A stretch of 64,000 bases of DNA from Azolla caroliniana (lineage: Eukaryota; Plantae; Polypodiophyta). A program made the position numbers and the translations under genes. Location: assembly GCA_043228905.1 (NCBI GenBank), contig JBHGNT010000010.1:9114001-9178000 (forward strand), read 5' to 3'. Positions 7,926 to 62,402 of the stretch are shown here, piece after piece. Below the pieces are notes generated by a model. It searched no databases. It saw only the letters and a list, made by a program, of their open reading frames with translations, and was not told where the DNA came from. Numbering within the stretch: position 1 is the stretch's first letter; each line of letters begins with the position of its first letter.

Positions 7926-7948
7926 TCTATGCCAAGGGGTGCAAGTAA

Positions 7949-8001
7949 GGTTTGAACCTTGCACCTCCAAGATAGGACACAATTGACTTACCATTAGGCT
8001 A
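7949..8001 (-). promoter_or_regulatory. tRNA-like A-box/B-box cassette in LTR D (copy 23780-23831)
   Basis: TAGCCTAATGG, 32 nt, GGTTCAAACC on the minus strand. Confidence 0.7.
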
Positions 8002-8731
8002 AGTTGTTTCTTTAAGTTATACTTTCATCATTGTGTTCTTCACATGTAAATATTCATACATGAGAGCTTGAATGAGTGACATGGTCATCATGCATCACAT
8101 GTAATGCATGAGTGCCAAATGGCAATCATGCATCGCATGCGTTCCATGCATTGTATGCATGTCTTGTACCCTCACATGCATCATATGCATGGGGGCATCT
8201 ATAAAAGAAAGGAAGAAAAAGAATTGGGGGGGGGGAATCAAGCTATGTGGTGAATCAAGATCTTAATAAGAAAAAACCTAGTTATTTTATTGGTGATGTG
8301 TCTTGTTTCTCAACATTGAAGTCAAGGGTTCAAACCCAGAATTGGAATTTACGTCACTCTCTCTCTCTCTCAGCCACATTAGTATATCACTTCGGCTACT
8401 ACAATTTCATTTTGTGTGGTCATTCACTCTATCTCTAGAATTCTCGTAAAGAAGGAAATAGCACCGGCAAAGATCGTTTCGCCATTGTCACCGCTCACTA
8501 AAACGTTGCGCACCACCACATTACCGCCACCTACACATCAATCCACCGCACCGATGAGTCTAGTTCGGGTGCATCTTCAACAACAAAGAACAACCCAACA
8601 ATAAAGCTAAACGGCCAATTCATCTGGACCTCCATAACCACTAGTGGATAGATGCCCGATGCTTGTCTGCGCCTGTGTGACGCACACATCACGACATTTG
8701 GCACGTGTGTCACACGCCACGCGACATCTTC

Positions 8732-8747
8732 TGGTGAACCCGACATG
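8732..8747 (+). promoter_or_regulatory. Primer-binding site complementary to the tRNA-Trp 3' end
   Basis: TGGTGAACCCGAC(A/G)TG follows the LTR end GCGACA; same PBS at 55745-55760. Confidence 0.75.
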
Positions 8748-8899
8748 AACAACACAAGGTGGTAATGGAGGCATCACGAATGATGGATGTGGTCTTGCTT
8801 GCTTACGACTTAGCGGAGTCAATTAGAATAGAAGGTGGTCCAAAGCTCCTAATGCTTCTGTTTGTAAGGAAGGCCATGGAAATGTTGTTGCATTATGAT

Positions 8900-9730
8900 A
8901 AGGAAGATCGAGATATTTGAGGATGCGGTCATGAAGAGGAACGAACGTGGGCTTGACAAGAGAGATCAATATGTTCTCGGTTGCAATCTTTGAAGAGGCA
9001 TGTGACAAAGATCATGGTCTTAAAGGGAGAGATCGAGATCAACATGCCTATGGTCGTTACGAGGATCGTTCCAAACTTGACAAAAGAGAAACATGTGACG
9101 AAGAACACGATCTTGAAGGGAAGGATTGTGATCAACATACCTATGGTCATCATGAAGATCATTGCAAACTCAAGAGAAGAGAGAGATGCAACGAAGAAGG
9201 ATGCAATCGTGAAGAGACATGCGATGAAGAATGTGGGCTCAAGAGGGAAGACCGAGAAGGATGCGATCATGAAGAGACATGCGATGAAGAACATGCGCTC
9301 AAAACGGAAGAATGAGATATTTAAGGATGCGGTCGTAATGAAGAAAGTGGGCTTGACAAGAGAGATCAACATGCCTATGGTCATTACGAGGATTGTTGCA
9401 AACTCGACAAAAGAGAAACATGTGACGAAGAACACGATCTTGAAGGGAGAGATTGTGATTGTCATCATGAAGATCATTGCAAACTCAAGACAAGAGAGAG
9501 ATGCACCAAAGAAGGATACAATAATGAAGAGAGATGTGATGAAGAATGTGGGCTCAAGAGGTAAGATCGAGAAGGATGTGATCATGAAGAGACATGCGGT
9601 GAAGAAAGTGGGCTAGAGGGGAAAGACCAAGATACTCAAGGATACAGTCGTGAAGAGACATGAGACAAAGAACGTGGGTGTGAGGAGAAAGATTAAGATC
9701 TACATGGTTATGATAACAAAGATCATTGCA
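8900..9730 (+). repeat. Degenerate tandem repeat array (about 57-60-bp subunits, about 400-bp higher-order unit) inside element D
   Basis: Recurring GAAGAGACATGYGAYGAAGAA and GTGGGCTYRA motifs; 8920-9250 repeats at about 9323-9620. Confidence 0.8.
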
Positions 9731-11249
9731 AACTCATAAAGAGTGCTCGAGATCTACAAGGTTATGATTGTGGCAAAGATTACTATAAACACAAGAGGAG
9801 AAATCAAGGTCGAGCTCTTCATGGTTGTGCTACACTCGAAATTCGTGATGGTGAGAGAAATTGGGATCAAGACTCTCATGGTTTAAATTGTGATGACAAG
9901 CATGATAGGTTTAATGAGAGCCGCGAACGAGAGAAGAAGTTAGGAAGAGATGAAAAGTTTATAGATGATGACGATGATGATAATAACGATACACACGATT
10001 TAGGGCTTGATGATAGTAAGGGAGAGTGTATTATTGATGGTGAGAGTGAGTGCCATGAGAAGAATGAGGGTTATGATGATAAAAAGTTGTGCACTTTCTG
10101 TGGATATGGTTATGATAAGGGTAATGATGAGGGTGAGAGTGACGAAGAGGAATTGTGTGTTTTAGGTTGCCTTGGGTTTCTTCGTGATAGATTTTATAAG
10201 GGTTTCACTAAATCAAATGGTGACATTCATGAGGATATCCATTATGAAAATAGAATAGGGATTTGTGATGATGAGGACGTTCTACAAAAATATGTCCATG
10301 ATGATGTAGGGTTACTTAATCATCACAAGGGTATAAGTAAGGAAAATCTAGAAAATGTTATTTGGGATGTGTATAATGATGTTGTTGATGGGATGGGATT
10401 AAGGTTAATAAGATTGAGGATAATCTAGAAAATGTTATGATGGTTTGGGATGTGTATGATGATTATGTTGGTGTTGTGAGTGTGTGCGGGAAGGATGAGT
10501 TTAGGGTAGATGATATTGAAAATGATGATTATCTTGTAATAAATGATTTGGTGATTAAATATGTTGTTAATGATGATGTAAATATAATTAACATTGAGGT
10601 TGTTATCGAAGAAAATGATGTTGTGGTAAAATGGATGGTTTTAATTATAAAGAAGACAAGAAAGAAGTAATTATGAGGACTACCCATGGGAATTGTCATG
10701 ATAATACTCAGATCATGCATCAAAAGGATCATGACACTCACATTATGACTCGGATTTGAACCCACGAACTTGTTGTACACATGTCAAATCCTTACCCATT
10801 GTATTAATATTCTTATATGTATATTTTTTAGAATATGAAATGTAATATCATAGGAATATTCTATATTACTTTATATTCTAGAATGACCTAGAAAATTCTA
10901 GAGTGTTCTATACCACTAGAACCTTCTAGAATACTCTAGAGATATTCTAGATTACTCTACATTCTAGGATAACCTAGAATATTCTAGAGTGTTCTCTATT
11001 ACTTATAAAAAAGGGATCTACCACCCATCCCAAACCTAAATTGGTTTAACGCCATTTTGTAGCCTACTCTTTGTAATCCATTTTACTCTTCAATATAATA
11101 ATTCTCTTTCAATTATCTCTCTACCTCTCTTTCTCTCTCTTTCTCTCTCTCAGTCTTGACAGTTTGAACCAATTTTCTTCCTTTCATCTCTTCGTCTTCC
11201 ACAAACCCTAATAAGTTCTCTTCTTCCTTCTCCTCTCCCCTCGTAAGCT

Positions 11250-12335
11250 ATGGAGTTCGTGAGCAAACAAGAATACATGTGTGTTCTTTCTGAGCTCGAC
11301 ATGCTCACGAATAAATTTGTGGCATTAGAGCATGAGAATCAAAGGCTACTTGGAGATCTACAACACGTGAGCGCCGAAAAAGCTCAACAATATGAAGAGT
11401 TATCACAACGGGTTCATCAACTCGAGGCGACTATATTGTCATTACAAGAGCAAGCGTCGGGGGCTCAGAACTCCCCTAGAGAGCCAAAGATTAGCCTCCC
11501 CGCCAAGTTTGATGGTACGAGGCCTTTATTTTGAGGCTTTTTGAATCAAGTTCGTCTGGTTATTTATCTACATCCCAATCGATATCCAATTGATGCTGCT
11601 CATGTGGGACTAGTGGGAACTTTGCTATGCGGTACAACGTTGCTGGAGGATTTCAAGGCATTTGTTAAAGAGTTTCAAGCTAGTTTCGGAGACACCAACA
11701 ACACTAGGATAGCGATAAACAAGTTTCGAAGGCTCTAACAAGGAGATCGTCCCGCGTCGGCTTATGCAACCGATTTCCGTCTCTTGGCATGCGATATCCC
11801 TTGGTATGAGGCGGCCTTAATGGATCAATTCCGTCAAGGTTTGAGAAATGATGTCAAAGATCTTCTTCTTACTTTCCTTGAAGATCCGAAGTCGCTTACA
11901 GAAGCCATTAGTCAAGCTGTGCGATGTGATAATCGCCTATTTGAGCGACATTCTGAGTGCCAACAAATGTTACACCACCAACCTGAGCAGACTTACGCTT
12001 CCGAAGTCGCAACGCCTCCACAAGTTTCTAGAACCATTACAAGGGATGGACCAACTCCGATGGAAATAGAGTCAACACAACATCGTGGGCCGTTATCAGA
12101 TGCTGAGAAGCAACGATGTCGAGCACATCACCTCTGCTTGTATTGTGGCGGTCCAAGACATATAGCTGTAAATTGTCCACATAAACCTAGGCGTCAAGTA
12201 TACCAAGTAAGTGCCCATGAAAACCCTACATCGAGTTCTATTGTTACTTCTAATAACATAAATAAGCCTCATAGTCCATGCCATGAGAATAGATTCGATG
12301 TCTTGAGTCAATTAGAGGATGTGTTAAACGAGTAA
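11250..12335 (+). pseudogene. gag: gag of chromovirus B (with stops and frameshift)
   Basis: Coiled-coil N-terminus, PKISLPAKFDG, PTPMEIE, zinc knuckle CLYCGGPRHIAVNC; paralogous to 17384-18535. Confidence 0.88.
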
Positions 12336-12943
12336 GTTCGGCCAAAATAGGAGCCATTTGGCTGGACCATCCTAGCTATGTAGAGTTAGTTCCTAGTCGT
12401 GGTTCCATTTCATCAAATCAAGTGAGTCGAGTTTTTTCAGCACAAGTCGAGCTTACCACATTTATATGTCATCGAGTCTTAGCCTCTGCCCTCCTAGATT
12501 CTGGAGCCAACTCTTGTTTCATGGATCGTGAATTTGCCTTGTCACAAAACATCCTCTTGAATAAGCTTCCCAGCCCAGCAACCATAGGAGTCATTGATAG
12601 ATGTCCCATAGCATCAGGAGATATAGTCGAGGAGTCCGAGCCAATTAGGATAGTTCTTGGTGATTTGGCAAGCATAATCTCTTTCAACATTATTCGTAGT
12701 CCGGAACACCCAATAGTTCTAGGTCTCCCTTGGTTTGAACTCCATAACCCGAAGATTGATTGGATGAAAAGAACAATTGAGGAGACCCGGGAAAAAAGCA
12801 CAAACCCCACATCCCTCTCTCCTACATGTGATAATAGATCCCTGGAGTTATCGCCCATCTCTTTACGACAATTGCGGGAGGAAGGGGGGAACGAGGCCAT
12901 GTTCGTCTTCGCAATAATAGCAACTCCATCATCCACTTCATGT
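12323..12943 (+). pseudogene. pol: Protease part of chromovirus B pol
   Basis: ALLDSGANSCF and IVLGLPWF motifs; lies in the -1 frame relative to gag. Confidence 0.88.
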
Positions 12944-13477
12944 TGTCATGCCTTTCGGCTCCGGATCGTTGCGTGAGTTGAGTGGGAACCACTGGGGTTT
13001 TGGACTAGGAGGAAAGAAAATTCTAGGGCAATTAAGAATATGAAATATATTGTAAGAAAGAAAGATATGAAAAACTCTTGAATCCCATGAGTATAGTGTG
13101 TTAGTGAGTACTCAGATTAAGAGAGAAAAAAATAGTTAGAAATTCGTGAATCCCATGATTATATTATTAATCCCCCTTGTAAAATAAGCAACAACCTCTA
13201 TACATCTTTCTCTCTTCCTTATATAGTGTTGGAAGAGTCTAAGTTTATCACATGCAAGCATCATGCTTTTCCTATTTTTAGTTTTCATGCACACCGCATG
13301 TGCATGATTAGCTTTCTATCTAATCTTTTCTTTTAACTCAAGTGTCTATGCATGAATAACTTTTTGTACCATGTGTCATGAACAGTACTGAGACAGAGAA
13401 GGAATTAGTACTAAACGAAGGATTAGTACTATGAGAGGTGTGGAACTTCTTCGAGAGAAGGAAGAAGTGAGCAAGAC

Positions 13478-13509
<32 letters not shown>

Positions 13510-13642
13510 TGATGATAAGAAAGATATTTATTATATGAAGAGAATATACAACGGTGGCTAAAAGGCTTAAGACTGGCGTTGAACCAATTTGATTCAACAT
13601 AATGCCTAGTGCCCTCTTTTATAGTGTTTTCAGGAGTAGTCC

Positions 13643-13662
13643 TGAAGCTTCTAGAATGTTCC
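13643..13662. promoter_or_regulatory. Perfect 4-unit heat-shock element in U3 of LTR A (second copy 18878-18897)
   Basis: tGAAgcTTCtaGAAtgTTCc about 20 bp upstream of the TATAAAA box in element orientation. Confidence 0.65.
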
Positions 13663-13737
13663 AGAGAAATCTGGAATATACACTAATTTCCTATAATAAA
13701 ATGTAAATGAAAATAATATCCTACGTATTACAATAGA

Positions 13738-13791
13738 TGTTCTAATGGTCAAGAGCTCGACCCATATAACCTAAGGTCATGGGTTCGAGTC
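13738..13791 (+). promoter_or_regulatory. tRNA-like Pol III A-box/B-box cassette in LTR A (copy 18973-19026)
   Basis: TGTTCTAATGG, 33 nt, GGTTCGAGTC; not a complete cloverleaf. Confidence 0.65.
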
Positions 13792-13799
13792 TTGCCATA

Positions 13800-16700
13800 T
13801 CATGACACTATCCCCCCTTTAAAACGACGAGTGTCACGAGTCGTCTTGGATTGAGAACTCGGTTTGTGTGGATATTGACGATGGAAGTCTTCAAGAAGAG
13901 CACGAGCATTGGTTACATTCTCGATCGGTTCCCAAGTACGTTCGCTGGGACTATAGCCTAGCCAATCGACTAGATAGTAGAGCTTGTTGCGAACAATCTT
14001 GGAATCAAGAATGGCGGCAACCTCGTACTCCGGCCCATCTTCAAGCTCGATTGGGGGTGGAGGTTGGATAAGACGTTCTGGGATGGTGCTCTCGTGGTAG
14101 GGTTCAAAGAGAGAACTATGAAACACCGGATGTATCCGAAGTTGAGGAGGTAGATCGAGACGAAAAGCAACATCATTAATCTTTCCAATAATACGGAAAG
14201 GACCTAATCGCCGATAATCCAACTTCTCACATGGGCGAGTAGTCTTGATGTGTCGTCGTAGCAACCACACCCGATCTCCAATATTAAAACTAGATGGAAG
14301 TCGATGACGATCCGCGTAAACCTTGTGTGTTTGTTGAGCTTGCTGGAGATGAGTAGATAAATCCGCTTGTATCTTGCGTAACCGCTCCAAACGATCCTCC
14401 ACGCACGGATTTGTGGACACCTTTGGGGTTTCAAGTACACTCCACCGGGGGTGACATCCCGTATAAGCATAAAATGGCGTAACTTTAGTGGATGCGTGGA
14501 TAGAGTTGTTATAGGCAAATTCGGCGAAGTGGAGAATATCTGTCCAGTCGTCCTGATGATAGCTGAGAAAACACCGCAGATACTGCTCCAACGTTTGATT
14601 TGTTCGTTCAGCTTGGCCGTCAGTTTTTGGGTGGTAGCCGGAAGAGAGGTTACAAGTGACCTTGAGCATGTTAAAAAGGTGCTTCCAGAATTTTGACACG
14701 AACTGGGGTCCACGGTCGCTGATGATACTATCGGGGAGTCCATGATGCCGACATACTTCACGCATGACAATTTCGGCAGTGTCTTCACTGGAGATCTCCT
14801 TAGTACATGGCAAGAAATGAGCCATCTTCGTATATCGATCGACCACCGTTAGAATCGCATTGAACCCCTTAGAGACTGGAAGATCTGTGATGAAGTCTAG
14901 AGCAATGGATTGCCACGGCTTGCTTGGAATTGATAATGGTTCTAATAAACCATATGGATGATGCCTTGGCATTTTCGCTCTGCAACATGTATCACAAGTC
15001 CGAACAAAATCCTCGACAAATTGTCGCATACAGGGCCACCAGAATGATCGTTGTACTAAATGTAATGTTTTAGTACTACCAAAATGCCCAGCTGTATATG
15101 TGTCATGACAGTTTTGTACTACTCGAAGGCGGCAAGAACCATTAGGAACATACAAAAGTTCTTTAAAGAAGAGTAATCCATCATGGTATTTGAATTGCCG
15201 ATAGTCCGTACCTGGTGGTTGCGACTGTGAACACGACGCTCGAGAGGGATCAATTTGTGCTAGTATAGCTTGGGCGAACGCATCTGTCTTCAAGTCTTCA
15301 CGTATGGTATCGATAACGCGGGAATCCATAGGCATGTCAAAGATTTGTGTTGCTTGTAATCGTGCCGGTCCCAAGATGACTTGTTTTTGGTTATCGAAAG
15401 CTGGCTCGCCGGGACGGGGTGCTAGATACGAACGCCGTGATAATGCATCTGCCTTCCCTTGGTGCCTCCCCGGACGATATGTAATTTTGAAGTCGAAACG
15501 CGTGAGGAAGTGGGCCCACCGAGCTTGACGTCGATTCAACACACGAGCATCCTGAAAGTAGGCAAGATTCTTGTGGTCACTAAATACGGTGACTGGATGA
15601 GAGGATCCCTCCAGAAAATGCCTCCATTACATAAAAGAATCCACTATTGCCAATAGCTCCTTATCATGGATTTCGTAGTTGATTTCGGCGGCATCAAACT
15701 TGCGTGAGTGAAAAGCCACAGGATGTAGCTTTTCATCATTCCCCTGTTGTGACAGAATGCTCCCCAATGCAAAATCCGATGCGTCAGCTTCGATAATGAA
15801 TGGTTTCTCCGGATCGACATGAGCTAGAATTGGAGCCGATGTAAATGCTTTTTTAAGACTCTCGAAAGCCATGTCCGTTTCTTCAGACCAGGTGAACGGT
15901 TGTCCCTTCCTGGTAAGTTGTGTGAGAGGTAGAACGATCTTTGAGTAATCCTGTATGAACTTCCGGTAAAAATTGGCAAAGCCTAAGAAGCATTGCACAT
16001 CCCGTACCGAACGCGGAGTCTGCCATTCTACCACCGTTCTGACCTTAGCTGGGTCCATGGAGATGCCTTCTGACGAAATGATGTAGCCGAGAAATTCCAC
16101 TTGGTTGCACCCGAAACTACATTTTTCTAGCTTTGCATACAGACCATGTTCTCGAAGTCGTTTTAGTACTAATAGTACATGAGAATCATGTTCTTCTTGG
16201 GTCTTTGAATAAACCAGTAGATCATCCAAATAGATGATCAAACAATCATCCAATAGATCTCGGAATATATCATTAGCCATGTGCTGGAAGACTGCCGACG
16301 CATTAGTGAGGCCAAACGGCATGACAGTATACTCGAAGTGCCCATATCTGGTGCGAAACGCGGTCTTCCATTCGTCTCCTGGTCGGATCCGTACGAGGTT
16401 ATATGCTCCCCGTAAGTCGATCTTCGTGAAGAACCTGGCACCATTGATCCGTTCTAAAAGACTTGAGATAAGGGGAAGAGCATACCTATTCCTGATTGTA
16501 ACCTTATTCAAGCCACGGTAATCTACAACGAGACGAAGCGATCCATCTTTTTTCTTGACGAAGAAAATGGGCGCACCGACTGGAGATTTCGAATGCCGAA
16601 TGAAACCATTTTCCAAATTCTCCTCTATATAGGCCCGAAGGACTTCTAGCTCGGTTGGTGACAAATTGTAGATCGGTCCCCATGGCGGCTCTTTTCCCGG

Positions 16701-17390
16701 TTGTAAATCGATGGGGCAATCGTACGGTCGATGATGAGGAAGTGTGTTGGCTTGTACTTTATCGAACACATCGGTGTAATGGCGATACTTCTCGGGAAGT
16801 TGAACGGTGGATTCTTCTTTAGTGGTGTTGGAGGGGTTTACTGATATTGCAAAGAGGAACATTTCCTCCTTGTGCCCTTCTTTACGCAACTGACGTAGCG
16901 AAATGGTTGCCATCTTCTGAGTTGACCCTTGGGTTTGTCGACACCGGATTTCTCTTGTTCTCCAATCTATGTCAGGGTTATGTAACTCGAACCACGGTAG
17001 TCCTAAAACTATAGGATGTTCTGGGATACTAATAATATTAAATGATATTACACATACTAAGTTATCTAGGACAATATTAATGGGCTCTGACTCTTCTAGG
17101 ATATTTCCGGAAGCAATGGGACGTCCATCAATGACTACTACAGAGGCTGGACACTGGAGTTTTCTTAGGGATATCTTATGAGCTTGAGCAAATTTCTTAT
17201 CCATAAAGCAAGAGTTAGCTCCGGAATCTAGGAGTGCTAGGACATGTACTGGAGGGGTACTTTTAGTACTAACTATTACTTGGGCTACGAACACATCACT
17301 AACTTGCTTAGAGGGAATGGAACCACTAATGGGCTGCACAGATCTAGGGCTGTCCAACCAAACGGCTCCTATTTTGGCTGGACTTAGTCG
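13800..17390 (-). pseudogene. pol: Pol of chromovirus A (PR-RT-RNaseH-IN-chromodomain) with a single in-frame TAA at 15627-15629
   Basis: ALLDSGA, YLDD, EADASDF, HHCC zinc finger, SDRGPQF, GQAERTNQ, GPF, chromodomain YEVAAILD..YYLVDWLGY..TWEP; ORFs 15627-17357 and 13800-15542 share one frame. Confidence 0.93.
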
Positions 17391-18535
17391 TTTAACTCTT
17401 CTTCTAACTGACTAAGGACATCAAATTTGTTTGCTAGATCTGGGATATTAGTACTATTAGGACTATCAGATATCCCTACTGAAATAGGTTCGGATTTAGT
17501 ACAATTAGAACTAGCGACTATTTGGTTTACCTGTCTTCTTGGCCTATGGGGGCAATTTATTGCGATATGTCCTGGTCCACCGCAGTAAAGACATAGTCGA
17601 TTTGTACGGCGTCGCTGCTTTTCTTCTTCGGATAATGGCCCTCGACGACGTGTAGTGTCAATCTCCATCGGAGTCGGAGTATTCGCTGGAGACGCATTAT
17701 ATGACTCCCTCGGAAAAGGTCTTGCTACCACTGAGGCGTAGGTGGGCTCTGATCTTGCCCTCAGCATCTGTAGCTGTCGTTCCGAACGTCGCTCAAAGAG
17801 GCGGTTGTCACATCTCACCGCGCGACTGATTGCTTCTGTTAAGGACTTTGGCTCTTCGGGGAAGGTCAAGAGTAAATCCTTGACGTCGTTGCGTAAACCA
17901 TAACGGAATTGCTCCATCAACGCTTGATCATCCCAAGGGATATCGGCGGCGAGTAGGCGAAAATCTACAGCGTATGCGGAGGCTGGACGGTCACCTTGGC
18001 GTAATCGCCGGATTTTGTTGATTGCGGTCCTAATGCTGTCAGTATCTCCGAAACATGCTTTAAACTCACCTAGAAACTCTTCAAAATTGTTGAGTAATGG
18101 AGATTCCTTTTCTAATAGTGGAGCGAACCATGACAACGCTGAGCCACTTAACAAAGTGCCTACTAAACCCACTCGTGATGCATCGGTGGGATATCGGGAA
18201 GGATGCATTTGAATAACTAATCGTACCTGGTTAAGGAACCCTCTAAACTGCGATCGCGTTCCATCGAACTTCGTGGGAAGGCCAATCTTAGGTTCTTTAT
18301 GAATCCCTTGTGTTCCGGGCCCATGTTGTTGCATCGCTACGATGGTGGCTTCGAGTTGTTGCACGCGTAACGCAAGTTCCCCATGTTGTTGTTGCGTTTG
18401 CTGCTTTTCTAAGGAGATTTGCTGAAGATCCCCCAGCAACCGTTGGTTTTCTTGTTCCAAAGCATGGAACTTCTCCTTCAAGCATTGGAATTCCGAGAAA
18501 ACAGAGTGATATTCTTCAGCGCTAACAGTGGCCAT
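17384..18535 (-). CDS. gag: Gag of chromovirus A (383 aa, intact)
   Basis: Open ORF with retrotransposon gag domain, QG motif, PTPMEID, CLYCGGPGHIAINC zinc knuckle. Confidence 0.93.
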   Translation of the reverse strand: MATVSAEEYHSVFSEFQCLKEKFHALEQENQRLLGDLQQISLEKQQTQQQHGELALRVQQLEATIVAMQQHGPGTQGIHKEPKIGLPTKFDGTRSQFRGFLNQVRLVIQMHPSRYPTDASRVGLVGTLLSGSALSWFAPLLEKESPLLNNFEEFLGEFKACFGDTDSIRTAINKIRRLRQGDRPASAYAVDFRLLAADIPWDDQALMEQFRYGLRNDVKDLLLTFPEEPKSLTEAISRAVRCDNRLFERRSERQLQMLRARSEPTYASVVARPFPRESYNASPANTPTPMEIDTTRRRGPLSEEEKQRRRTNRLCLYCGGPGHIAINCPHRPRRQVNQIVASSNCTKSEPISVGISDSPNSTNIPDLANKFDVLSQLEEELND

Positions 18536-18712
18536 GGGATGAAAGAAAAGAGGAATAAAAGATTAGTAGGAAATGAGAGAGACAGAAGGGTGAAAAATTG
18601 GTTCAAACTGTCATGAACAGTACTGAGACAGAGAAGGAATTAGTACTAAACGAAGGATTAGTACTATGAGAGGTGTGGAACTTCTTCGAGAGAAGGAAGA
18701 AGTGAGCGAGAC

Positions 18713-18744
<32 letters not shown>

Positions 18745-19106
18745 TGATGATAAGAAAGATATTTATTATATGAAGAGAATATACAACGGTGGCTAAAAGG
18801 CTTAAGACTGGCGTTGAACCAATTTGATTCAACATAATGCCTAGTGCCCTCTTTTATAGTGTTTTCAGGAGTAGTCCTGAAGCTTCTAGAATGTTCCAGA
18901 GAAATCTGGAATATACACTAATTTCCTATAATAAAATGTAAATGAAAATAATATCCTACGTATTACAATAGATGTTCTAATGGTCAAGAGCTCGACCCAT
19001 ATAACCTAAGGTCATGGGTTTGAGTCTTGCCATATCATGACACCATGCATGTCTAGAAATTTTACATGGGATAAAGTTTAGTATAACTTTAAAATTCATA
19101 ATACAC

Positions 19107-19159
19107 TAGTATAATGATAAGGCTTAACATTATTAACATGGAGGTGCAAGGTTCGATTC
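19107..19159 (+). promoter_or_regulatory. tRNA-like A-box/B-box cassette in LTR C (copy 25052-25103)
   Basis: TAGTATAATGA, 32 nt, GGTTCGATTC. Confidence 0.65.
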
Positions 19160-19684
19160 TTGCCCTATGCATGTAATATATAATTTTATACTTTCTTCTA
19201 TTTACAAATATGTCTCTTCATCTGGTGAGAGACTCTCACCGGCCTTCTTCATCCGGCTCTTGCCGGTTCTGCTTCATCCGGTTCTCGCCGGTTTTCTTTA
19301 TCCTGTTCTTACCGGATCCTTCTTACCGGTCCTCTTCGTCCATTTCTCACCGACTCTCACCGGCCTTCTTCATCCGGCTCTTGTCGGTCTCCTTACCGGT
19401 TTCAGTCCTCACCGGTTCTTCCTTCCGGTTCTCACTGGGTACTCCATATCCTATTCGGAGAAACCAAAAATGTAATTTTTCACGTAGTGTGCGAATTACA
19501 CTACGACACTCGCCCCCTCCGAACCCGCACATCCTCCGGTATGTGCCAAAGTCCCCAATGCTTGCTATTCACCTTCATCCGAAGCTTCCTCCAATTCTCC
19601 CCTTAAGTTGACTATGAGTTGTAATCCACTTTCCTCGCTTCCCGCATCACCGCGATCTTCGTCCGATTGCTCCTTCTTCGTCCG

Positions 19685-22647
19685 TGAAGTGGACATTAAA
19701 CTACCAGAGAAATACAAGAAGTTTTCAGATGTCTTTGATAAGGTGAAGGCCAATACATTGCCGGAGCATTGGTCATACGACTACCCTATTGACTTACAAC
19801 TAGGGAAAGAACCTCCATGGGGCACAATTTATAATCTCTCCCGTGTAGAGCTAGAGACTTTGCGGGAATATATTGATGAGAATCTGGCAAACGGATTCAT
19901 TCGGCATTCTAGATCCCCTGCTGGTGCACCTATCTTCTTCGTTAAGAAGAAGAATGGGACTCTGCGGTTGGTCGTGGATTATCGAGGGCTAAACAAAGTG
20001 ACTATCTGGAATAGATATGCTCTACCATTAATCCCGAATCTTTTGGAACGTCTCAGTGGTGCAAAATATTTCATGAATTTGGACCTTCGCGGAGCATATA
20101 ATCTAGTTTGGATTCGCTCGGGGGATGAATGGAAGACAGCTTTCCGCACTCGCTATGCACATTTTGAGTATACAGTGATGCCATTCGGTCTCACGAATGC
20201 ACCTGCTGTTTTCCAAGATATGGCGAACGATATTTTTCGAGATTTTCTTGATATCTTCACTATAGTTTACCTAGATGATATTTTAATCTACTCAAAGACC
20301 CAAGAGGAGCATGACGAACATGTTCGTCAGGTATTGCGTCGACTCCGCGAATATGGTCTCTACACAAAATTAGAAAAGTGTAGTTTTGGCTAGAATCAAG
20401 TGGAATTTTTGGGGTATGTTGTATCGTCAAATGGTATTGCTATGGACCCCATGAAGGTACAAGCAATTTTAGAGTGGCAAACGCCCCTTTCAGTGCGTGA
20501 TGTGCAATGTTTTCTCGGGTTTGCAAATTTTTATCGAAAATTTATTAAAGATTATTCCAAGGTTGTGCTTCCGCTACTCAGCTCACACATAAAGATCAAC
20601 CATTTATATGGAGTTCAGATGTAGCCAAGGCATTCGAAAGCTTAAAACGAGCATTTACAACAACACCTATCTTAGCACATGTCGACCCAACAAAACGCTT
20701 CATCCTCGAAGCTGATGCATCCGATTTTGCACTAGGGAGTGTCCTCTCGTAGATTGGAGATGATGGACGGCTACATCATGTCGCCTTTCATTCACAAAAG
20801 TTTGAACCTGCAGAGATCAACTACGAGATCCATGACAAAGAGCTTCTTGCAATCGTGGATTCATTTCAACAATGGTGACATTTTCTAGAAGGTTCTTCTC
20901 AGCAGATCATTTTCTACAATGATCATAAGAACCTGACTTATTTCCAAAATGCTCGAGTCTTGAGTAGGCGACAAGCCCGGTGGGCGCAATTTTTGACTCA
21001 CTTCGACTTTATCATCATATATCGCCCTGGGATGCAGCAAGGCAAATCATATGCTCTTTCTCGGCATTCTTATATGGAACTTCGTCCAGGGAACTTGCAT
21101 TTGAGCATAAAAAACAAATCCTTTTGGGTCCTAATCGATTACGATTAATGGTAGTTAACGCCATAACAACTCTTGAAAATTCCACTCTTCTTGATTCCAT
21201 TCGAGATCATATGGCCACTGATGATTTCGCCAAGGATGTTTTGGATCATATCGTCCCGGATCGTGCTTCTTGCTCACGGTCGAAAAATCCTCGTAATGAC
21301 TATTGTCAGTTCTATTGGCATGGTGGTCTTCTATTTCGACAAAATCTATTGTATGTTCCTGATGGTCCCCCACGGCTACAAGTTTTACAACATTGCCATG
21401 ACTCACCAATGGCTGGTCATTTTGGAGTTCAAAAGACTCTAGAATTAATTTCTCGACGCTATTGGTGGCCTCGCCTTCGTCATTTTGTTGAGGAGTATCT
21501 TCGGAGTTGTGATATATGTTGTCGATCAAAGAGTCCTCGTCACCGATCCTATGGCTTACTACAACCACTTCCCATTCCGGAAACTCCTTGAAAGTCTATA
21601 TCCTTGGACTTCATTACTGGTCTCCCAGTTTCAAAAGGTTTTGATGCAATTCTCACAGTGGATGATCGATTTACCAAAATGGAACATTTCTTGCCATGTA
21701 CAAAGTCGATTACTAGTCAAGAGGCGGCTGATCTCGTTATGCGGGAGGTATTTAAGCATCATGGTCTGCCGGATGATATTATTAGTGATCGTGGTCCACA
21801 ATTCATCTCAAAGTTTTGGAAGCACATGTTCAAACTTCTCCACATTTCGGTTAAGCTTTCTTCGGGCTATCATCCCGAAACAAATGGCCAAACTGAGCGT
21901 ACCAACCAGACATTGGAACAATATCTTCGTTGTTTCATCAACTATCAACAAGATGATTGGGTTGATTTTTTGCACTTGGCGGAATTCGCTTACAACAACT
22001 CAACCCATTCTTCTACAGGATATTCCCCATTTTTCGCAAATACGGGCTGTCATCCTCAATGGACGATGAATGTGCATCCAGACGTTCCTACCAACCCTGC
22101 TGTCGAGGATCGTCTTAGTCGCCTCCAAGAAATTCAAGCTAACATTGTCCACAATTTGCACGATGCTCAATTTACACACAGGAGGCTTGCCGATCGTCAT
22201 CGTCTAGACTCCTCAAAAAAGTTCTGCATTGGGGATCATGTATGGCTTCTCCAACACAACATCAAGACCACTCGACCTTGCAGTAAATTGGATTACCAAC
22301 GTTTTGGCTCTTACATGATCATTGGTAAGATAAGTGATGTTGCATTTCGTCTTGACCTCCCTCCGCACATGCATCTTCATCCGGTGTTTCACGTATCCCT
22401 TTTGGAACCTTATACTACAAGTTCAATTCCGGGCCGTCTTATGACACCCCCACCACCTATCAAGTTCTTGGACGGGCTTGAATTTGAAGTTGCTGCCGTT
22501 CTCGATTCTAAAATCGTGCGCAACAAGCTGTATTACTTAGTTGATTGGCTAGGCTATACCCCCAATGATCGAACTTGGGAACCTGCCGCAAATCTTTCCA
22601 ATGTTGCAGAACTCGTCAATGCATTTCGAAGGGGGATAGTGTCATGA
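19685..22647 (+). pseudogene. pol: RT-RNaseH-integrase-chromodomain of chromovirus B
   Basis: YLDD, LEADASDF, SDRGPQF, FEVAAVLD..YYLVDWLGY..TWEP; several stops and frameshifts. Confidence 0.92.
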
Positions 22648-22701
22648 TAACACTCAGATCATGCATCAAAAGGATCATGACACTCACATTATGACTCGAA
22701 A

Positions 22702-22756
22702 GGATTTGAACCCACAACCTTGTTGTACATATGTCAAATCCTTAACCATTGTATTA
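22702..22756 (-). promoter_or_regulatory. tRNA-like A-box/B-box cassette in LTR B (copy 10752-10806)
   Basis: TAATACAATGG, 33 nt, GGTTCAAATCC on the minus strand. Confidence 0.6.
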
Positions 22757-24400
22757 ATATTCTTATATGTATAGTTTTTAGAATATGAAATCTAATATCA
22801 TAGGAATATTCTATATTACTCTACATTCTAAAATGACCTAGAATATTATAGAGTGTTCTATACCACTAGAACCTTCTAGAATACTCTAGAGATCTTCTAG
22901 ATTACTCTACATTCTAGGATAACCTAGAATATTCTAGAGTGTTCTCTATTACTTATAAATAGGGATCTACCACCCATCCTAAACCTAAATTGGTTCAACG
23001 CCATTTTGTATCCTACTCTTTGTAATCCATTTTACTCTTCAATATAATAATTCTCTTTCAATTATCTATCTACCTCTCTTTCTCTCTCTCAGTCTTGATA
23101 GGAATGAAGGGAAAGAAGATGCATCAAGATGGTGGGATGTTCAACTAAACAGAGAAGATTGTATTGCCAACATTTCCATCTCCCATCTCAAGGAAAAGGA
23201 TTGGCTAATAAGAAGACGCACCCGGTTTTTGGATTCGGTTCGACAAGACACATCGACTACATCCCAAGAAGATCAAAGAAGGAGATTGGGTATTGTTCTA
23301 CAACAACAACCTTGACAACCAAAACAGGACAGCAAGAAAGTTCGCAAGAAGGTGGTTTGGACGGTAAGTGGTGACAAGTGCTAATGACAACGCCACTTAC
23401 CACCTCATGGAGCATGACAGATCAAGGCTGGCCATACCCATTGCGGGGAAAGATCTTCAAGAAAAGAAAAGAAGGATCCTGACCTCGATGATTGGTCAAT
23501 GAGGACGTGGAGGAAATTGATTAATCACCGTAGCTGAAATCTCACTCTTTCTTCTTGGCACGTACCAGAGGATGTGTGGTTTGGTGGGGGTGGATGTCGT
23601 GAAGATTTTCGGCAACTGTGTGAAAATTGCGTGGAATGGAGAAAATCGAGAAGGTGCAATGTGCACACGAATGAAAGGGGTGATGGTTACACTCGTACGT
23701 TAGTATATTTTATATATGAATGAAATGAGAACCCCTAAGGCCTAGTAACATTTTTGTGCATACCAAGGGGTGTAACTAAGGTTTGAACTTGCACCTCCAA
23801 GATAGGACACAATTGACTTGCCATTAGACTAAATTGTTTCTTTAAGTTATACTTTCATCATTGTATTATTCATGTGTAAATGCTCATATATGAGAGCTTG
23901 AATGAGTGACATGGTCATCATGCATCACATGTAATGCATGAGCGCCAAATGGCAATCATGCATCGCATGCGTTCCATGCATTGTATGCATGTCTTGTACC
24001 CTCACATGCATCATATGCATGGGGGCATCTATAAAAGAAAGCAAGCAAAAGAATTTAGGGGGGGGGGGGGGGGGGAGGATCAAGCTATGCATTGAATCAA
24101 GATCTTAATAAGAAAAAACCTAGTTATGTTATTGGTGATGTGTCTTGTTTCTCAACATTGAAGTCAAGGGTTCAAACCCAGAATTGGAATTTCCGTCACT
24201 CTCTCTCACTCTCTCTCAGCCACATTAGTGTGTCACTTTGGCTACCCCAATTTCATTTTGTGTGGTCATTCACTCTATCTCTAGAATTCTCGTAAAGAAG
24301 TAGCTAGCACCGGAAAAGATCCTTTCATCGTCGTCGTCGCCCACTAAAATGTTGCGCACCACCGCATTACTGCCTCCTACACATCAATCCACCATACCGC

Positions 24401-25216
24401 TGTCGTGCCTTTCGGCGCCGGATCGTTGTGTGAGTCGGGTGGGAACCGCCGGGGTTTTGGACTAGGAGGAGGAGAGTTTTTTAAGGCTAATAAGAATATA
24501 AATAGATTATAAGGAAGAGAGATAGAAAACTTGTGAATCCCACAAGTATAATGTATTTTAATAATCAATATTTAGATAATAATATGAAATTAGAATGAAA
24601 GAGATAGATATAGAAACCTTGTGAATCCCACGAGTATAGTTTATTTCGTGAATCCCACGAATATAATTTATTAATTGGTGTTATTAGAAGTATATTCAAT
24701 TTCCAAAGTTTTCACACATAATTTATTTATTTATTTTTCTCCCTTATTACATTGTGCTCCCATCCTTATATAGTGATAAGAGAGTCTTATCAATCCATGC
24801 TTTTTCTCTAACTTAACAACTTCATGCTTTTTCTATTAATAAATAGATTATATGCTTTCTCTAACGTGCTTTTCCTAAAAGTGATCATGCGTTATTTATG
24901 AACTATAGTGTCCATGCACGCTAGATGTGCATGTATAGCCTTTTCATTTATCATGCATTTTCTTCTAACTAAAGCTTTTTTTATCTAGAAAATATACGTG
25001 GAAAAAACCTTTCTATGTGGGATATTTGTTTTTCTAACACTTATGATGTGTTAGTGTAATGATACGGTGTCAAATTATTAACATGGAGGTACAAGGTTCC
25101 AATAGACTTGCCCTATGCATGTAATATATATTTTAATATTTTCTTTTATTTCTTCATATTTATTGAATCTAGTACTCTATATGTTTTTCACGTAGTGTAC
25201 GAAATACAGTACGACA
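24401..25216 (-). mobile_element. Solo LTR of family C inserted in the 3' LTR of D; 4-bp TSD CCGC
   Basis: TGTCGTG...TACGACA; CCGC on both sides; the uninterrupted site is visible in the 5' LTR of D near 8550. Confidence 0.85.
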
Positions 25217-27168: not shown

Positions 27169-29595
27169 TGTCATGATATGGTAGGACTCAAACCCATGAC
27201 CTTATGCTACATGGGTCGAGCTCTTGACCATTAGACCATACATTATAATATATAAAATATTATTTTCATTTTTCCTATATCGAGTGTTACTTGTATATTC
27301 TTCTCACACAGTATATCGCTGTCATCATCATTCCCTCTCAGTCCCTCTCTCTCCACTATTGATCATATCTTCACACTTAGATGCCTAATTGACCAAACTA
27401 AGGCTCGCAAGAAGAAATTGTATTGTTGTTTTGTGGACTTCCGCAAAGCCTTTGACACAGTCCCTAAAGAGCGGTTGTTTGATAGACTTAAAAGCTTGAG
27501 GATACCAGATGATATGGTATGGGCCATCTACGCACTATATGAACAAGTGTCCGGGTGTGTCCGATGCCCAGGTGGCCTATCTAATCGTTTCACTAGCACT
27601 ATTGGTGTAAAACTAGGTTGCCCGCTATCACCGACGCTTTTTGGGATCTACATTGATGAGATCACAGATTTTATTGCTCGTGAGGGAGGCATTGGAGTGG
27701 TCCTTGGGGATACGCAGGTTCGTATCTTGCTCTATGCGGATAACATAGTTTTGCTCTCTGAATCCAAACACGACCTACAAATGCACCTTAATGCCTTAGA
27801 GGACTTTTGTGTACAACGAGGATTGGTAGTGAATCTAGGGAAAACGAAAGTCCTTATCTTCCACACATCGGCCCAAGTTAGAGCTAAGTGTCACCTAACT
27901 ATCTCCCATAGCCCAGTCGAGGTGGTTGGATCATACGTCTATCTTGGAGTCACTTTTAGTGCCCGCTCAGGTAAATTTTCGATGACACAGGCAGCGAAGG
28001 ATAGACTCACGAGAGGACATGCATCCCTCTCACTCCTAGAGAGACAATGCCACCAAGCACACTTTCAAGAGCCACGGACTAAAGGGTGGCTCTTTGACTC
28101 ATTAGTGAACCCCTCCCTCATGTATGCATCAGCGGTTTGGGCTCCAGGATTACCATCTTTCATGTGGACGAAATTAGAGAGACCATTGGTGATGATGCTA
28201 TCACGCCAACTCCGAAGCAAATCGACTGTACCACATGACATTATTAGGGCTGAGTTCACGTTACCCCCAATGTTAGTAGAGGCACTTTTTCAACTTGTCG
28301 TCTTCATTCATAGGATACATAGCCAACCACATGATAGAATATCTCATCAAGCCTTTAAGGCCTCTCGATCATTGTATGAGTCCGGCTATACTAGCTCATG
28401 GTATGGCATGATGGTGAGTTGGCTTCTTGCGAATGGTCTAGACATTAATAACCTACCTCCCCTTAGGTACAACCACACGAGTGATAACACTTTAATCTCT
28501 CATGAGGACCGCAATAAAGTAATACGCCAAGAAATATGGAAAATTTACACTCGGTGTAAATGGATCACCCCACTAGAGCCACTCCCATCTAAAATGTTGT
28601 ACTATAAGAAACACTTCTTGCACTTCTTTGAGTTAGGTTTTATTACGTGACCAAAATATCTAGATGTATTCTTACCACATGCACTAAGGGTTGCCATTGG
28701 ACAACTTAGAATATCATCTCACCAACTTGAGATTGAGAATGGCCGTACTAGTGGAGTCCCTAGGGAGGGAAGGATATGTAGGTTATGTCACATAGAGATA
28801 GAGGATGAGTACCAATTTACATGCAAGTGTCCAACCTATGCCAAGATAAGGGCAAAATACCAAGACATACTTGGTTCGTCTCCCACCCTCCCCAAACTAT
28901 TAGATACTCTAGATATAAAGAAATTAGGCAAATACATTCTAGAGCTAAAACAACACAGAGAGAATAAGTTACAAAATGTTGACAATAATGTTGCTAATGA
29001 TCACGAACATGTAACAAATGAAGTTTTTCAGGAACAGGGGGAGACAACGAATGTCGACACACTTGCACCACTCAACCTTTCCATTGATGAGGCAGAAAAC
29101 CAGAGAAGAACCAGACGTCCTCGGGTGCCGGGTTTCAAAGCAACTCGACGTGATGTGGAAGCAATATTGAAAATAAGGGAACGTGAGCTACACCACCTAG
29201 AAGCCATGGCTAGGGTACTCTCTACATTGGAATTACGGGTCACACCAACATCAAGACCCTTTGACCCCCCACTTCTTTTCGAGAGGCTTGGGTGGAAATA
29301 AAATTAGGTTTAGTGTATGTATAGTCACTTTCGAGTATACTACGTATTGTACACTACTAGAACTCTTTTAGTTTAAGTTCTATTTTTTACTTAATTTTAT
29401 TTTAGTTATGATGACTGGATAAATACTCTTTTGTTGTAAACCAATTGTCTCATGGGCCAAATTTGGCCTTAGAAGACGTTAATATATCTTTCTTTCTTCT
29501 TTCTTTCTCTCTTCTTTTCTCAAGTGTTCTACACCTTAAATTCTTCTTAGTACTAATATTTCTCTCTTAGTACTAATTTCGTCTCTGTCTTAGAA
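27169..29595 (+). mobile_element. Chromovirus-type LTR (A-like, 3' end lost) interrupted by an RTE LINE
   Basis: TGTCATGATATGGTAGGACTCAAACCCATGACC matches the start of LTR A; TAGTACTAAT repeats after the LINE match U5 of LTR A. Confidence 0.78.
27350..29506 (+). mobile_element. 5'-truncated RTE-clade LINE (copy 1), inactive
   Basis: FVDFRKAFD, GCPLSP, YADN (catalytic D lost), YLG, C-terminal CxxC..H..C; (TTTC)n tail; near-identical to 60058-62400. Confidence 0.9.
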
Positions 29596-36463: not shown

Positions 36464-36469
36464 GGGTCA

Positions 36470-38280: not shown

Positions 38281-38679
38281 TCAAATTAGAGAGGCCATTG
38301 GCTCATTGCTCAAATGTACAAAGGATAACTAGAGCATGATTAAAGAAGGTAGTAGTCAACATTATATGTATTATACCAATAGTTGTGGCAAATTTTCTGA
38401 ATATGTAAAATCTATCTAATTTTGATAGATTGGTACCATTATTTTTTTATTAAAAATTTACTACTTCCATTAGTTAAGTCAATGTACATAGGATAAAATA
38501 CAAGAACTCATATCTTACAGGCCAACTTGCATGGCTACAAAGAGGCCACATGTACAAAGGAATCAACAAAAAAATAAGCTAATAATCACCATTGTTAGGA
38601 ATAGTACTTAGACCAAGAGGGGATTAGTACTAAAAGATGAGGATTAGTACTAAGAGGGGTGTAGAACTCTCGGGGGAGA

Positions 38680-41600: not shown

Positions 41601-42029
41601 GGTTGAACTTTATCCAAACAAGCATAAAAGTTAGAATCTTGATGAGGAATGTAACATCCAACTACAAAAGTGGGCAAATCATTAGGTGTTTCTATTTTGA
41701 GCCATATGTAGCATTTATTTTCATCATTTTTTATGATTGACACATATTTCTCTATTTCCTTCTTAATCAAACATGCCACCCCTCCTTGTCCTCTTCTTTG
41801 TCTTGGATTTTTCTTCCATATCAAAGAGTGTACATTATAGTTTCCTAAACCTTGAATCCTTTGAGTATCATGCTCCCATGTTTCAACAAGAAGTGTGATA
41901 TCCGAGTCATCGGTGAACTCCTCTATGCCAAATCCCGTATTCCATGGGTATCCATTGCAATTCCAAAAGCATAGTCGTAAAAGGCGCGGGTTAGTCTCAT
42001 AGATCACGTGTCCCTATTTGTCTACATTT

Positions 42030-42030
<1 letters not shown>
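38680..42030 (-). mobile_element. RTE-clade LINE with APE endonuclease, RT and C-terminal zinc finger (frameshifted); (ATCT)n tail
   Basis: FWNCNG, LLVETW, GDMNAR, IDYVL, SDHRP; QAGFRK; QGCPLSP; YLG; CTLC..EYH..C; (GATA)n at about 38680-38698. Confidence 0.9.
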
Positions 42031-42082
<52 letters not shown>

Positions 42083-42107
42083 TGATAACAAAAGATATAT
42101 ATTATAT

Positions 42108-42376
42108 TGTCGTGTCCCTTGGATGCAAGTGCATGCCTTCATGTTGGGTGTGCATGTGTTCCTTTGTGCCCCTTTTAGCATACCCTTGTTTATCATGCAT
42201 GCCTTCATGCTATGGTGCACATGTGTTCCGTTGAGCCACCCTTTTAGCATACCCTTGTTAGGACGCATGTAGCTATGTAAAGCCAACCCAAATGGGTACC
42301 TTTGTACGACTATAAATTGAATAGGAAGTAAGAAGCTAAACAAGTTGGTTTGGATTCCATTTATGTGCATTTCACA
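42108..42376. mobile_element. Solo LTR (269 bp) with 4-bp TSD ATAT and an internal tandem duplication of about 67 bp
   Basis: TGTCGTG...TTTCACA; removing it restores the A-like LTR sequence ATTATATGAAGAGAAT. Confidence 0.75.
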
Positions 42377-42604
42377 ATATGAAGAGAATATACAAGAATA
42401 GGTAGGAGGCTTAAAACTGGCGTTGAACCGATTTGGTTCTCAATAATGCCATGTGCCTCTTTTTATAGTGTCTTAGGAATACTCTAGAAATGTGGCTTAG
42501 GAATACTCTTGACATTTCTAGGATGTTCCAAAGAAATCTAGAATATACATGGATTTTCTAAGTGAAATAATAAATGGAAATAATATTTTTTATATTACAA
42601 TGTT

Positions 42605-42658
42605 TAGTTTAATGGTAAGGTTTCAACCCATGTGACACAAGGTCATGGGTTCAACTCC
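42605..42658 (+). promoter_or_regulatory. tRNA-like A-box/B-box cassette in the LTR of chromovirus I
   Basis: TAGTTTAATGG, 32 nt, GGTTCAACTCC. Confidence 0.65.

Positions 42659-62366: not shown

Positions 62367-62402
<36 letters not shown>

What the first reader, a model, noticed from the sequence alone, without database searches (positions are those of the whole stretch)
7949..42658. Antisense tRNA-like Pol III cassette built into U3 of many Gypsy LTR families
Seen: ten LTR copies carry an A-box-like TRGYnnAATGR followed by a B-box GGTTCRAnnC. They are at 7949-8001 and 23780-23831 (D), 10752-10806 and 22702-22756 (B), 13738-13791 and 18973-19026 (A), 19107-19159 and 25052-25103 (C), 27186-27239 (solo; A-box TGGTCTAATGG) and 42605-42658 (I). 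The boxes start 43-44 nt apart in the copies I counted, which is tRNA-gene spacing. Every copy is in U3, upstream of the TATA box and antisense to the element. The sequence between the boxes differs across families, while boxes and spacing are kept. The cassette occurs in both chromoviruses (A, B, I) and the PBS-Trp lineage (C, D). Known: tDNAs and TFIIIC-bound B-boxes act as heterochromatin barriers in yeasts, and Cassandra TRIMs carry 5S-derived Pol III promoters in their LTRs. Inference: these elements carry their own TFIIIC/Pol III module, either as an insulator for the LTR promoter in TE-dense chromatin or as a source of antisense RNA. I know of no description of this arrangement but cannot search the literature.
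Basis: partly seen in the sequence, partly recalled or inferred. Interest (0 to 1): 0.85.

Follow-up and report, generated by a model that had tools for sequence, protein, structure and literature searches.

The report
Backward tRNA promoter inside moss retrotransposons
One whole branch of protein-coding jumping genes, likely from mosses, and some members of a second branch carry a conserved, backward-facing tRNA-type promoter at the outer edge of their terminal repeats, which likely recruits RNA polymerase III factors and may keep the element's own promoter open in silenced chromatin.

Summary
Observation confirmed: all ten sites exist within about 1 nt of the stated coordinates, A-B spacing 43-44 (one 42), against 0-2 look-alikes per shuffled window. 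They reduce to two lineages: self-priming Tcn1-like chromoviruses (A, B, I, a fragment) and Phygy-like elements (C, D); Gypsy families K and J lack it. Relatives fetched by integrase alone carry it in 9 of 30 readable LTRs; carriers form one supported clade (99/97) with integrases only 51-83% identical. Boxes, the unscanned variable-loop motif (0.86 vs null 0.28), spacing and an AT-rich upstream pad are kept while the cloverleaf and flanks are lost: the pattern of a selected Pol III promoter, not a tRNA or neutral relic. No conserved terminator; no RNA or chromatin data, so the insulator role is inferred (0.45). Closest known: Helenus TRIMs (sense tRNA promoter, non-autonomous); ten literature searches found no antisense version in autonomous elements. 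The scan earlier noted looser fungal parallels (other genomes), not this one. New variant of a known kind.

The parts
13374..19042 (-). Element A: near-intact Tcn1-like chromovirus, TSD CCATG, LTRs 13374-13807 and 18609-19042 (2 differences in 434 nt), gag-pol with chromodomain, self-priming PBS
13738..13791 (+). A 3' LTR cassette (A box to B box, spacing 44), B box ends 17 nt from LTR 5' end
18973..19026 (+). A 5' LTR cassette; B-box CpG decayed to TpG
10694..23100 (+). Element B: Tcn1-like chromovirus, TSD GGAAT, interrupted by C1 and A
10753..10806 (-). B 5' LTR cassette, spacing 44
22703..22756 (-). B 3' LTR cassette, spacing 44
42605..42657 (+). Element I 3' LTR cassette (LTR 5' end at 42689, PPT 42690-42706), spacing 43, no mismatch to the boxes
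27185..27238 (-). Cassette in a ~110-nt A-type LTR 5'-end fragment (starts 27169) lying inside a TIR element; not a solo LTR
7949..8001 (-). D 5' LTR cassette (LTR 5'-truncated at 7929, ends 8726, PBS for tRNA-Trp type follows), spacing 43
23780..23831 (-). D 3' LTR cassette (LTR 23595-25389, split by C2), spacing 42
19107..19159 (+). C1 cassette (solo LTR 12944-19508 on - strand, split by A), spacing 43
25052..25104 (+). C2 cassette (solo LTR 24401-25216 on - strand, 4-bp TSD CCGC), spacing 43
13688..13737 (+). AT-rich pad directly upstream of the A box (example: A 3' LTR); predicted TFIIIB landing site, present in every carrier examined
8283..8336 (+). Weaker sense-strand A/B look-alike in D's R region (also 24125-24178), spacing 44; may be chance
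54576..59045 (+). Element K: PBS-Trp, 4-bp TSD relative of D whose LTRs lack the cassette (negative control)

Best explanation
The cassette is a tRNA-gene-derived sequence with A box, B box and an AT-rich upstream pad, kept back to front at the outer edge of U3 across a deep clade of autonomous Tcn1-like elements and in some Phygy-like LTRs, where it likely works as a Pol III promoter whose bound TFIIIC/TFIIIB would keep the LTR's Pol II promoter open against silencing spreading in from the flank. Shown: position, orientation, clade-wide conservation of promoter positions and spacing, loss of the cloverleaf. Inferred: one capture in the ancestor of the Tcn1 subclade and a second capture (or LTR exchange) in Phygy; TFIIIC binding; TFIIIB loading on the AT pad between cassette and TATA box, giving a nucleosome-poor barrier 110-280 nt upstream of the Pol II TATA; benefit to newly inserted copies that land in TE islands; any Pol III RNA is a by-product of variable length. 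That it is a working Pol III promoter at all: about 0.8; that its job is this cis chromatin role: about 0.45.
For: Loci picked by integrase only: 9 of 30 readable U3s carry it and the carriers form one clade, 99/97, 11 of 12 rows with LTR in view and the 12th cut off; integrase identity among carriers 51-83% apart from the near-identical pair L002/L003. Over 8 lineages pairwise identity is 0.82 (B box), 0.85 (positions 44-48), 0.65 (A box) against 0.40/0.39 expected upstream and 0.29/0.27 downstream; unscanned positions 20, 22, 44-48 give 0.857 vs null mean 0.279, max 0.388 in 200 shuffles. Spacing 43-44 in 8 of 8 lineages while B box-to-LTR-end varies 17-59 nt and A box-to-TATA 114-279 nt. 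The 60 nt upstream of the A box are 0.63-0.90 AT in 9 of 9 LTRs examined, a local peak in most, as at plant tRNA genes (PMC13578239, PMC3082873, passages). Phygy side: C1/C2 homology in U3 is a block ending at the A box; a D-family contig differs at 2 listed places over the 44 nt of the cassette it covers and 19 over the next 59 nt. tRNA genes sit in nucleosome-poor DNA and have insulator activity in yeasts (PMC11346459, passages); the moss chromovirus RLG1 lies in heterochromatic islands and only its youngest copies are transcribed (PMC7466625, passages).
Against: No transcript, ChIP or methylation data (no RNA holder listed). One of only two differences between A's LTRs is a CpG decay in the B box, also seen in the fragment and L008, so boxes are methylated in genomic copies; Arabidopsis tDNA clusters in heterochromatin are methylated and silent (PMC7544208, passages), and TFIIIC is excluded by CpG methylation (PMC11346459). 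K, J and 21 of 30 related U3s transpose without it. Barrier function needs neither a fixed orientation nor strict 43-44 spacing. All nine carrier loci come from one series of assemblies, so host breadth is unknown. Position 10 of the A box is poorly kept (G in 4 of 8), and L011 has 4 mismatches.
Confidence: 0.45

Rival explanations
1. The promoter is kept for its RNA: Pol III transcribes outward from the 3' LTR across the PPT into the integrase end, giving an antisense RNA (or Pol II/Pol III interference) that limits or times the element's own expression.
For: Full A box, B box and AT pad are what transcription, not mere TFIIIC binding, needs; orientation is antisense in both lineages; no T5 run within 450 nt in any of 12 3'-LTR read-throughs; Ty1 and Tf2 have antisense regulation (PMC7175516, passages).
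Against: No conserved terminator or product length: first T4 at 59-116 in 7 of 12, 194 in one, beyond 500 or absent in 4. Sense A4 runs in the integrase end are as depleted in non-carriers (13 vs 20.1, p 0.022) as in carriers (7 vs 11.5, p 0.049). No RNA data.
Confidence: 0.22
2. It acts in the genomic RNA as a tRNA-annealing site, like the U3 half of Ty3's bipartite primer-binding site that pairs with the D and T arms of the primer tRNA.
For: Explains antisense orientation and U3 position directly; Ty3 does this (PMC5371799, passages); R/Y degeneracy at 9, 11, 15, 57 fits G-U tolerant pairing.
Against: Carriers A, B, L003, L007, L011 are self-priming and need no tRNA; in D the T-stem 3' side does not match the tRNA end implied by its own PBS; conservation is at universal promoter positions rather than along a contiguous stretch, and the AT pad is unexplained. 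The B box does not co-vary with the self-primer (L003).
Confidence: 0.1
3. It is a passive relic of an old SINE or tRNA-gene capture, or a set of independent SINE insertions.
For: Kojima proposes SINE insertion as the origin of Helenus and notes that 'not a few' Repbase LTRs hold partial tRNA similarity (PMC10886601); individual copies decay in the boxes; K and most relatives lack it; an earlier scan note judged a fungal case a passenger (e1-9852194, untested here).
Against: Flanks and spacer are near saturation while boxes, variable loop and spacing persist; no tail, TSD or free-standing copy in 523 kb searched; single-clade distribution fits one capture, then retention.
Confidence: 0.1
4. 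The module serves integration or nesting: TFIIIB on the pad attracts or positions incoming elements, as at tRNA genes for Ty3 or Tj1.
For: A inserted 59 nt upstream of C1's A box; Tf1-group Tj1 and Ty3 target upstream of tRNA genes (PMC7175516, passages).
Against: One case; B, C2 and the other insertions in view are not placed so; being a target would disrupt the carrier's promoter.
Confidence: 0.05

Closest known systems
Helenus (TRIMp3; Kojima 2024, PMC10886601; parts 1-5 of 6 of the text read, supplement searched)
   Same: tRNA-derived sequence in both LTRs, conservation concentrated at boxes A and B, cloverleaf mostly non-functional, many families per genome, Pol III function inferred from conservation only.
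   Different: Helenus is non-autonomous, 311-1263 bp, with the tRNA part in sense (in the consensus LTRs I saw in the supplement) to make the template RNA; only plant case is Selaginella. Here it is antisense, in U3 upstream of an intact Pol II TATA, in 5.7-kb gag-pol elements; the paper argues autonomous partners must use Pol II and are unlikely to share LTR sequence with TRIMp3.
Cassandra and Ajax TRIMs (5S-derived; PMC10886601, PMC12786077 passages)
   Same: Pol III internal promoter inside an LTR.
   Different: 5S type, sense, non-autonomous; Cassandra is named as the exception to Pol II transcription of plant LTR elements.
Ty3 of S. cerevisiae (PMC5371799, PMC7175516 passages)
   Same: U3 holds sequence complementary to tRNA D and T arms; inserted LTRs sit next to Pol III promoters.
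   Different: Ty3's sites pair with its primer tRNA and the neighbouring tRNA gene belongs to the host; here the carriers self-prime and carry the boxes at tRNA-gene spacing with an AT pad inside their own LTR.
tDNA / TFIIIC insulators (PMC11346459 passages; detail recalled)
   Same: A/B boxes bound by TFIIIC in nucleosome-poor DNA; proposed working principle.
   Different: Host loci in yeasts and animals; not shown in plants here, and not described as a mobile, element-borne part in the papers seen.
Tcn1 and Phygy clades (Neumann 2019, PMC6317226 passages)
   Same: Chromodomain plus self-priming (A, B, I); 4-bp NCGN target sites (C2, D, K).
   Different: The passages seen do not mention any tRNA-like LTR segment.

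Membership tests
Helenus/TRIMp3 | Non-autonomous TRIM, about 1 kb or less, no proteins | tested here: not met
   A is 5.7 kb with gag, protease, RT, RNase H, integrase, chromodomain
Helenus/TRIMp3 | tRNA-derived sequence in both LTRs with conserved boxes A and B | tested here: met
Helenus/TRIMp3 | Pol III promoter placed to transcribe the element's template RNA (sense) | tested here: not met
   antisense and outward in all 10 window copies and 9 loci; sense in Helenus consensus excerpts
Functional tRNA gene | Cloverleaf stems; detection by ARAGORN or Rfam | tested here: not met
   acceptor 12/70 WC pairs vs 19.4 expected, anticodon 14/50 vs 12.6, D 18/40 vs 12.6, T 21/50 vs 14.2; no hit
Type 2 Pol III promoter | A box and B box at tRNA-gene spacing | tested here: met
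   43-44 nt is the best spacing in a 25-75 scan for 13 of 16 copies; L008 46, D3 42, L011 tie
Type 2 Pol III promoter | AT-rich/TATA-like upstream region of plant tRNA genes | tested here: met
   87% AT over 33 upstream columns in 8 lineages; local peak; no fixed TATA or CAA position
Type 2 Pol III promoter | Oligo-T terminator close downstream | tested here: not met
   T4 at 59-116 in 7 of 12, otherwise far or absent; no T5 within 450 nt
Type 2 Pol III promoter | TFIIIC binding and Pol III transcription | not testable with these tools
   no RNA holder listed; contigs only
tRNA-derived SINE insertion | Body/tail, own TSD, free-standing copies | tested here: inconclusive
   none in the window or 93 loci, but no whole genome was available
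Tcn1 chromovirus (A, B, I) | Chromodomain integrase and self-priming PBS, 5-bp TSD | tested here: met
   I has lost its 5' end so PBS not seen
Tcn1 chromovirus (A, B, I) | Placement with REXdb Tcn1 references in an RT/INT tree | not tested
   no reference sequences held; tree has fetched loci only
Phygy (C, D, K) | 4-bp NCGN target site, tRNA PBS, no chromodomain | tested here: inconclusive
   CCGC TSD (C2), ACGT right flank (D, K), PBS in D and K; C1 shows no TSD, C has no internal part, pol phylogeny not tested
Ty3-type bipartite PBS | U3 sites complementary to the element's own primer tRNA | tested here: not met
   Tcn1 carriers self-prime; D cassette differs from the tRNA end implied by its PBS

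The most novel reading that the evidence does not exclude
Autonomous LTR retrotransposons of two unrelated moss Gypsy lineages have converged on carrying their own tRNA-gene-type TFIIIC/TFIIIB barrier at the LTR edge: a mobile, selfish insulator that lets heterochromatin-targeting elements stay transcribed after insertion, and that seeds the host genome with thousands of Pol III factor sites.
Probability: 0.35. Interest if true: 0.88.

Novelty: new variant of a known kind. Interest (0 to 1): 0.66.

Why it matters
How chromoviruses that insert into heterochromatin still get transcribed is an open question; a built-in Pol III module gives a specific, mutable answer. It would extend small-RNA-gene promoters in LTRs from tiny non-autonomous TRIMs, where they make the genome RNA, to autonomous Pol II elements, where they must do something else. 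It would also give a first handle on tDNA-type insulation in plants, and, if the dominant moss families carry it, a large pool of TFIIIC sites that could affect genome organisation and tRNA annotation.

Tried and rejected
No whole genome held, so no genome-wide census. ARAGORN on the window and 60 of 93 loci and Rfam on the window and two short cassette regions found no tRNA. Cloverleaf as the conserved thing: rejected. B box as a second binding site for the self-primer: rejected, no co-variation. Selection against antisense terminators in the integrase end: raw counts looked suggestive (A4 runs 2.6 vs 4.9 per kb in carriers) but the codon-shuffle control showed the same depletion in non-carriers. 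Sequencing runs: no RNA holder listed; contigs cannot show strand or ends; one search showed no listed variant in the B box but 53 rows were hidden, so it is inconclusive. Direct homology of Tcn1 and Phygy cassettes: cross-profile hits are only E 0.4-1.8, so one versus two origins is open. Viral and prokaryote collections gave 14 distant loci, none a carrier. Earlier scan notes on this genome concern a different feature (tRNA end replacing the PPT).
Full report
Setting. The window is a nest of retrotransposons next to a plant DUF604 gene. No genome is held. A (13374-19042, minus strand) is a near-intact chromovirus with a 5-bp TSD and LTRs differing at 2 of 434 positions; B (10694-23100) and I are relatives. 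Their PBS is complementary to their own 5' end rather than to a tRNA, which with the chromodomain fits the Tcn1 clade of mosses and club-mosses (PMC6317226, passages). D and K have a tRNA PBS and NCGN 4-bp flanks and C2 a CCGC TSD, the mark of moss Phygy elements in the same paper. The host is therefore likely a moss (inference); clade names rest on these features, not on a tree with references.

Observation. A two-box scan with at most 2 mismatches finds 10 sites in the window and 0-2 in each of ten shuffles. They represent five or six insertions in two lineages. The 27185 copy is a short LTR-end fragment; C is known only from solo LTRs. K, a close structural relative of D, and J and the copia LTRs have none. 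D has a second, weaker, sense-strand look-alike in R (8283-8336) that is within what chance gives per window.

Unbiased relatives. An integrase alignment fetched 79 metagenome, 4 viral and 10 genome-collection loci. I read U3 in 30 of the 93, those among the closest 40 plus L084/L085 with a recognisable PPT and LTR start; 9 carry the antisense cassette (L001, 2, 3, 5, 6, 7, 8, 11, 37) and 21 do not. Shuffle probabilities for the carriers' scores were 0 of 300 for most, 0.007 for L005 and C2, 0.013 for L011; one non-carrier, L021, reached 0.043 at 4 mismatches. A profile from the Tcn1 copies, run over all 523 kb, hit only these nine loci and the six Tcn1 window sites below E 1e-7 (partly by construction), one partial at E 0.05, then C1 and D at E 0.5 and 1.8. 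In a 46-row integrase tree (L020, L037, L058 left out as too short; L040-L083 mostly not included) the carriers form one clade, 99/97, of 12 rows: 11 carriers and L004, whose LTR is cut off; integrase identities inside it run from 51 to 83%, apart from the near-identical L002/L003. All carrier loci come from one series of assemblies, as does the non-carrier L009, so the number of host species is unknown.

What is conserved. Over 8 lineages pairwise identity is 0.82 in the B box, 0.85 at tRNA positions 44-48, 0.65 in the A box, 0.39 in the anticodon arm (0.27 expected), and at background upstream and downstream. Boxes were the anchors, so I tested positions the scan never used (20, 22, 44-48): 0.857 against a null mean of 0.279 and maximum 0.388. 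Spacing is 43-44 in 8 of 8 lineages, also in a 25-75 nt scan except for a tie in L011; exceptions among copies are L008 (46) and D 3' (42). The distances to the LTR end and to the TATA box vary widely. Acceptor and anticodon stems pair at chance, D and T stems only modestly above; ARAGORN and Rfam find nothing. The 60 nt upstream of the A box are AT-rich in all 9 LTRs profiled, least clearly peaked in L002 and C2, as described for plant tRNA genes, though weaker in non-flowering plants (PMC13578239, PMC3082873, passages). On the Phygy side the best U3 block shared by C1 and C2 ends at the A box, and a D-family contig in run X2 shows 2 listed differences over 44 nt of cassette and 19 over the next 59 nt, with 30 rows hidden. 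This is the pattern of a DNA promoter kept by selection on active elements (inference), not a tRNA and not a neutral relic.

How it likely works. TFIIIC would bind the boxes and load TFIIIB on the AT pad, which lies between cassette and Pol II TATA; Pol III would fire outward, into host DNA from the 5' LTR and across the PPT from the 3' LTR. No terminator or product length is conserved and antisense T-run depletion is not carrier-specific, so I favour occupancy over RNA as the selected thing: a nucleosome-poor barrier at the LTR edge. tRNA genes are nucleosome-poor and insulate in yeasts (PMC11346459, passages), and the moss chromovirus RLG1 sits in heterochromatic islands with only young copies transcribed (PMC7466625, passages; whether RLG1 carries the cassette I could not check). 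Against: B-box CpG decay in A's 5' LTR, the fragment and L008, silencing of heterochromatic tDNA clusters in Arabidopsis (PMC7544208, passages), and many relatives thriving without it. A Ty3-type tRNA-annealing site in U3 (PMC5371799, passages) explains the orientation but not self-priming carriers or D's mismatch with its own primer. No expression data exist here.

Comparison and novelty. Helenus (PMC10886601; parts 1-5 of 6 read; supplement searched) is the nearest: tRNA-like boxes in LTRs, but sense and in non-autonomous TRIMs; the paper kept only elements under about 1 kb and notes that other Repbase LTRs have partial tRNA similarity, so some autonomous cases may sit undescribed in Repbase. 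Reviews seen in passages name only Cassandra or 5S cases (PMC12786077, PMC10946416). Ten searches found no antisense Pol III cassette in autonomous LTR elements; subscription papers such as the original moss chromovirus and P. patens v3 genome papers, and their supplements, were not searchable. tRNA position numbering and box consensus are from established knowledge. Earlier scan notes from other, fungal-looking genomes describe a half-tRNA LTR relic and an internal tRNA capture; I did not test them. Verdict: real, conserved, new variant of a known kind; function inferred.

Noticed in passing
window 19043-19107: Element A inserted 59 nt upstream of C1's A box, the position a Pol III-targeting element would choose; single case.
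   Followed up: partly
window 8283-8336 and 24125-24178: Second, sense-strand A/B look-alike at spacing 44 with an AAGTC variable-loop-like motif in D's R region; weak profile scores, may be chance.
   Followed up: partly
window 13576-13585, 18811-18820, 22992-23001, 42420-42429: The self-primer at the Pol II start of A, B and I itself reads as a perfect B-box consensus in sense; it is changed in L002/L003 together with the PBS, so probably coincidence.
   Followed up: partly
window 26377-30133: TIR-bounded DNA element with long subterminal repeats that holds the A-type LTR-end fragment (with a partial tandem duplicate at 27104-27130) and a LINE RT piece 96% identical to 60243-62403.
   Followed up: no
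window 54576-59045: Element K: PBS-Trp, 4-bp TSD, GC-rich internal part without recognisable pol in the ORFs scanned, inserted in a copia protease region; likely non-autonomous Phygy relative.
   Followed up: partly
window 45698-50347: Gypsy element J with very short 161-bp LTRs and a duplicated LTR end at 50171-50187; no cassette.
   Followed up: no
window 12944 and 19508: Solo LTR C1 has no matching TSD and contains a ~260-bp C/T-rich repeat block (19225-19480) absent from C2; possibly a recombinant.
   Followed up: no
window 13733-13793 (run X1): One low-depth contig skips almost exactly the cassette, suggesting rare cassette-less A-type copies.
   Followed up: no
L084-L093: Eukaryotic chromovirus sequences lie in contigs labelled as bacterial or archaeal genomes; likely binning contamination.
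   Followed up: no
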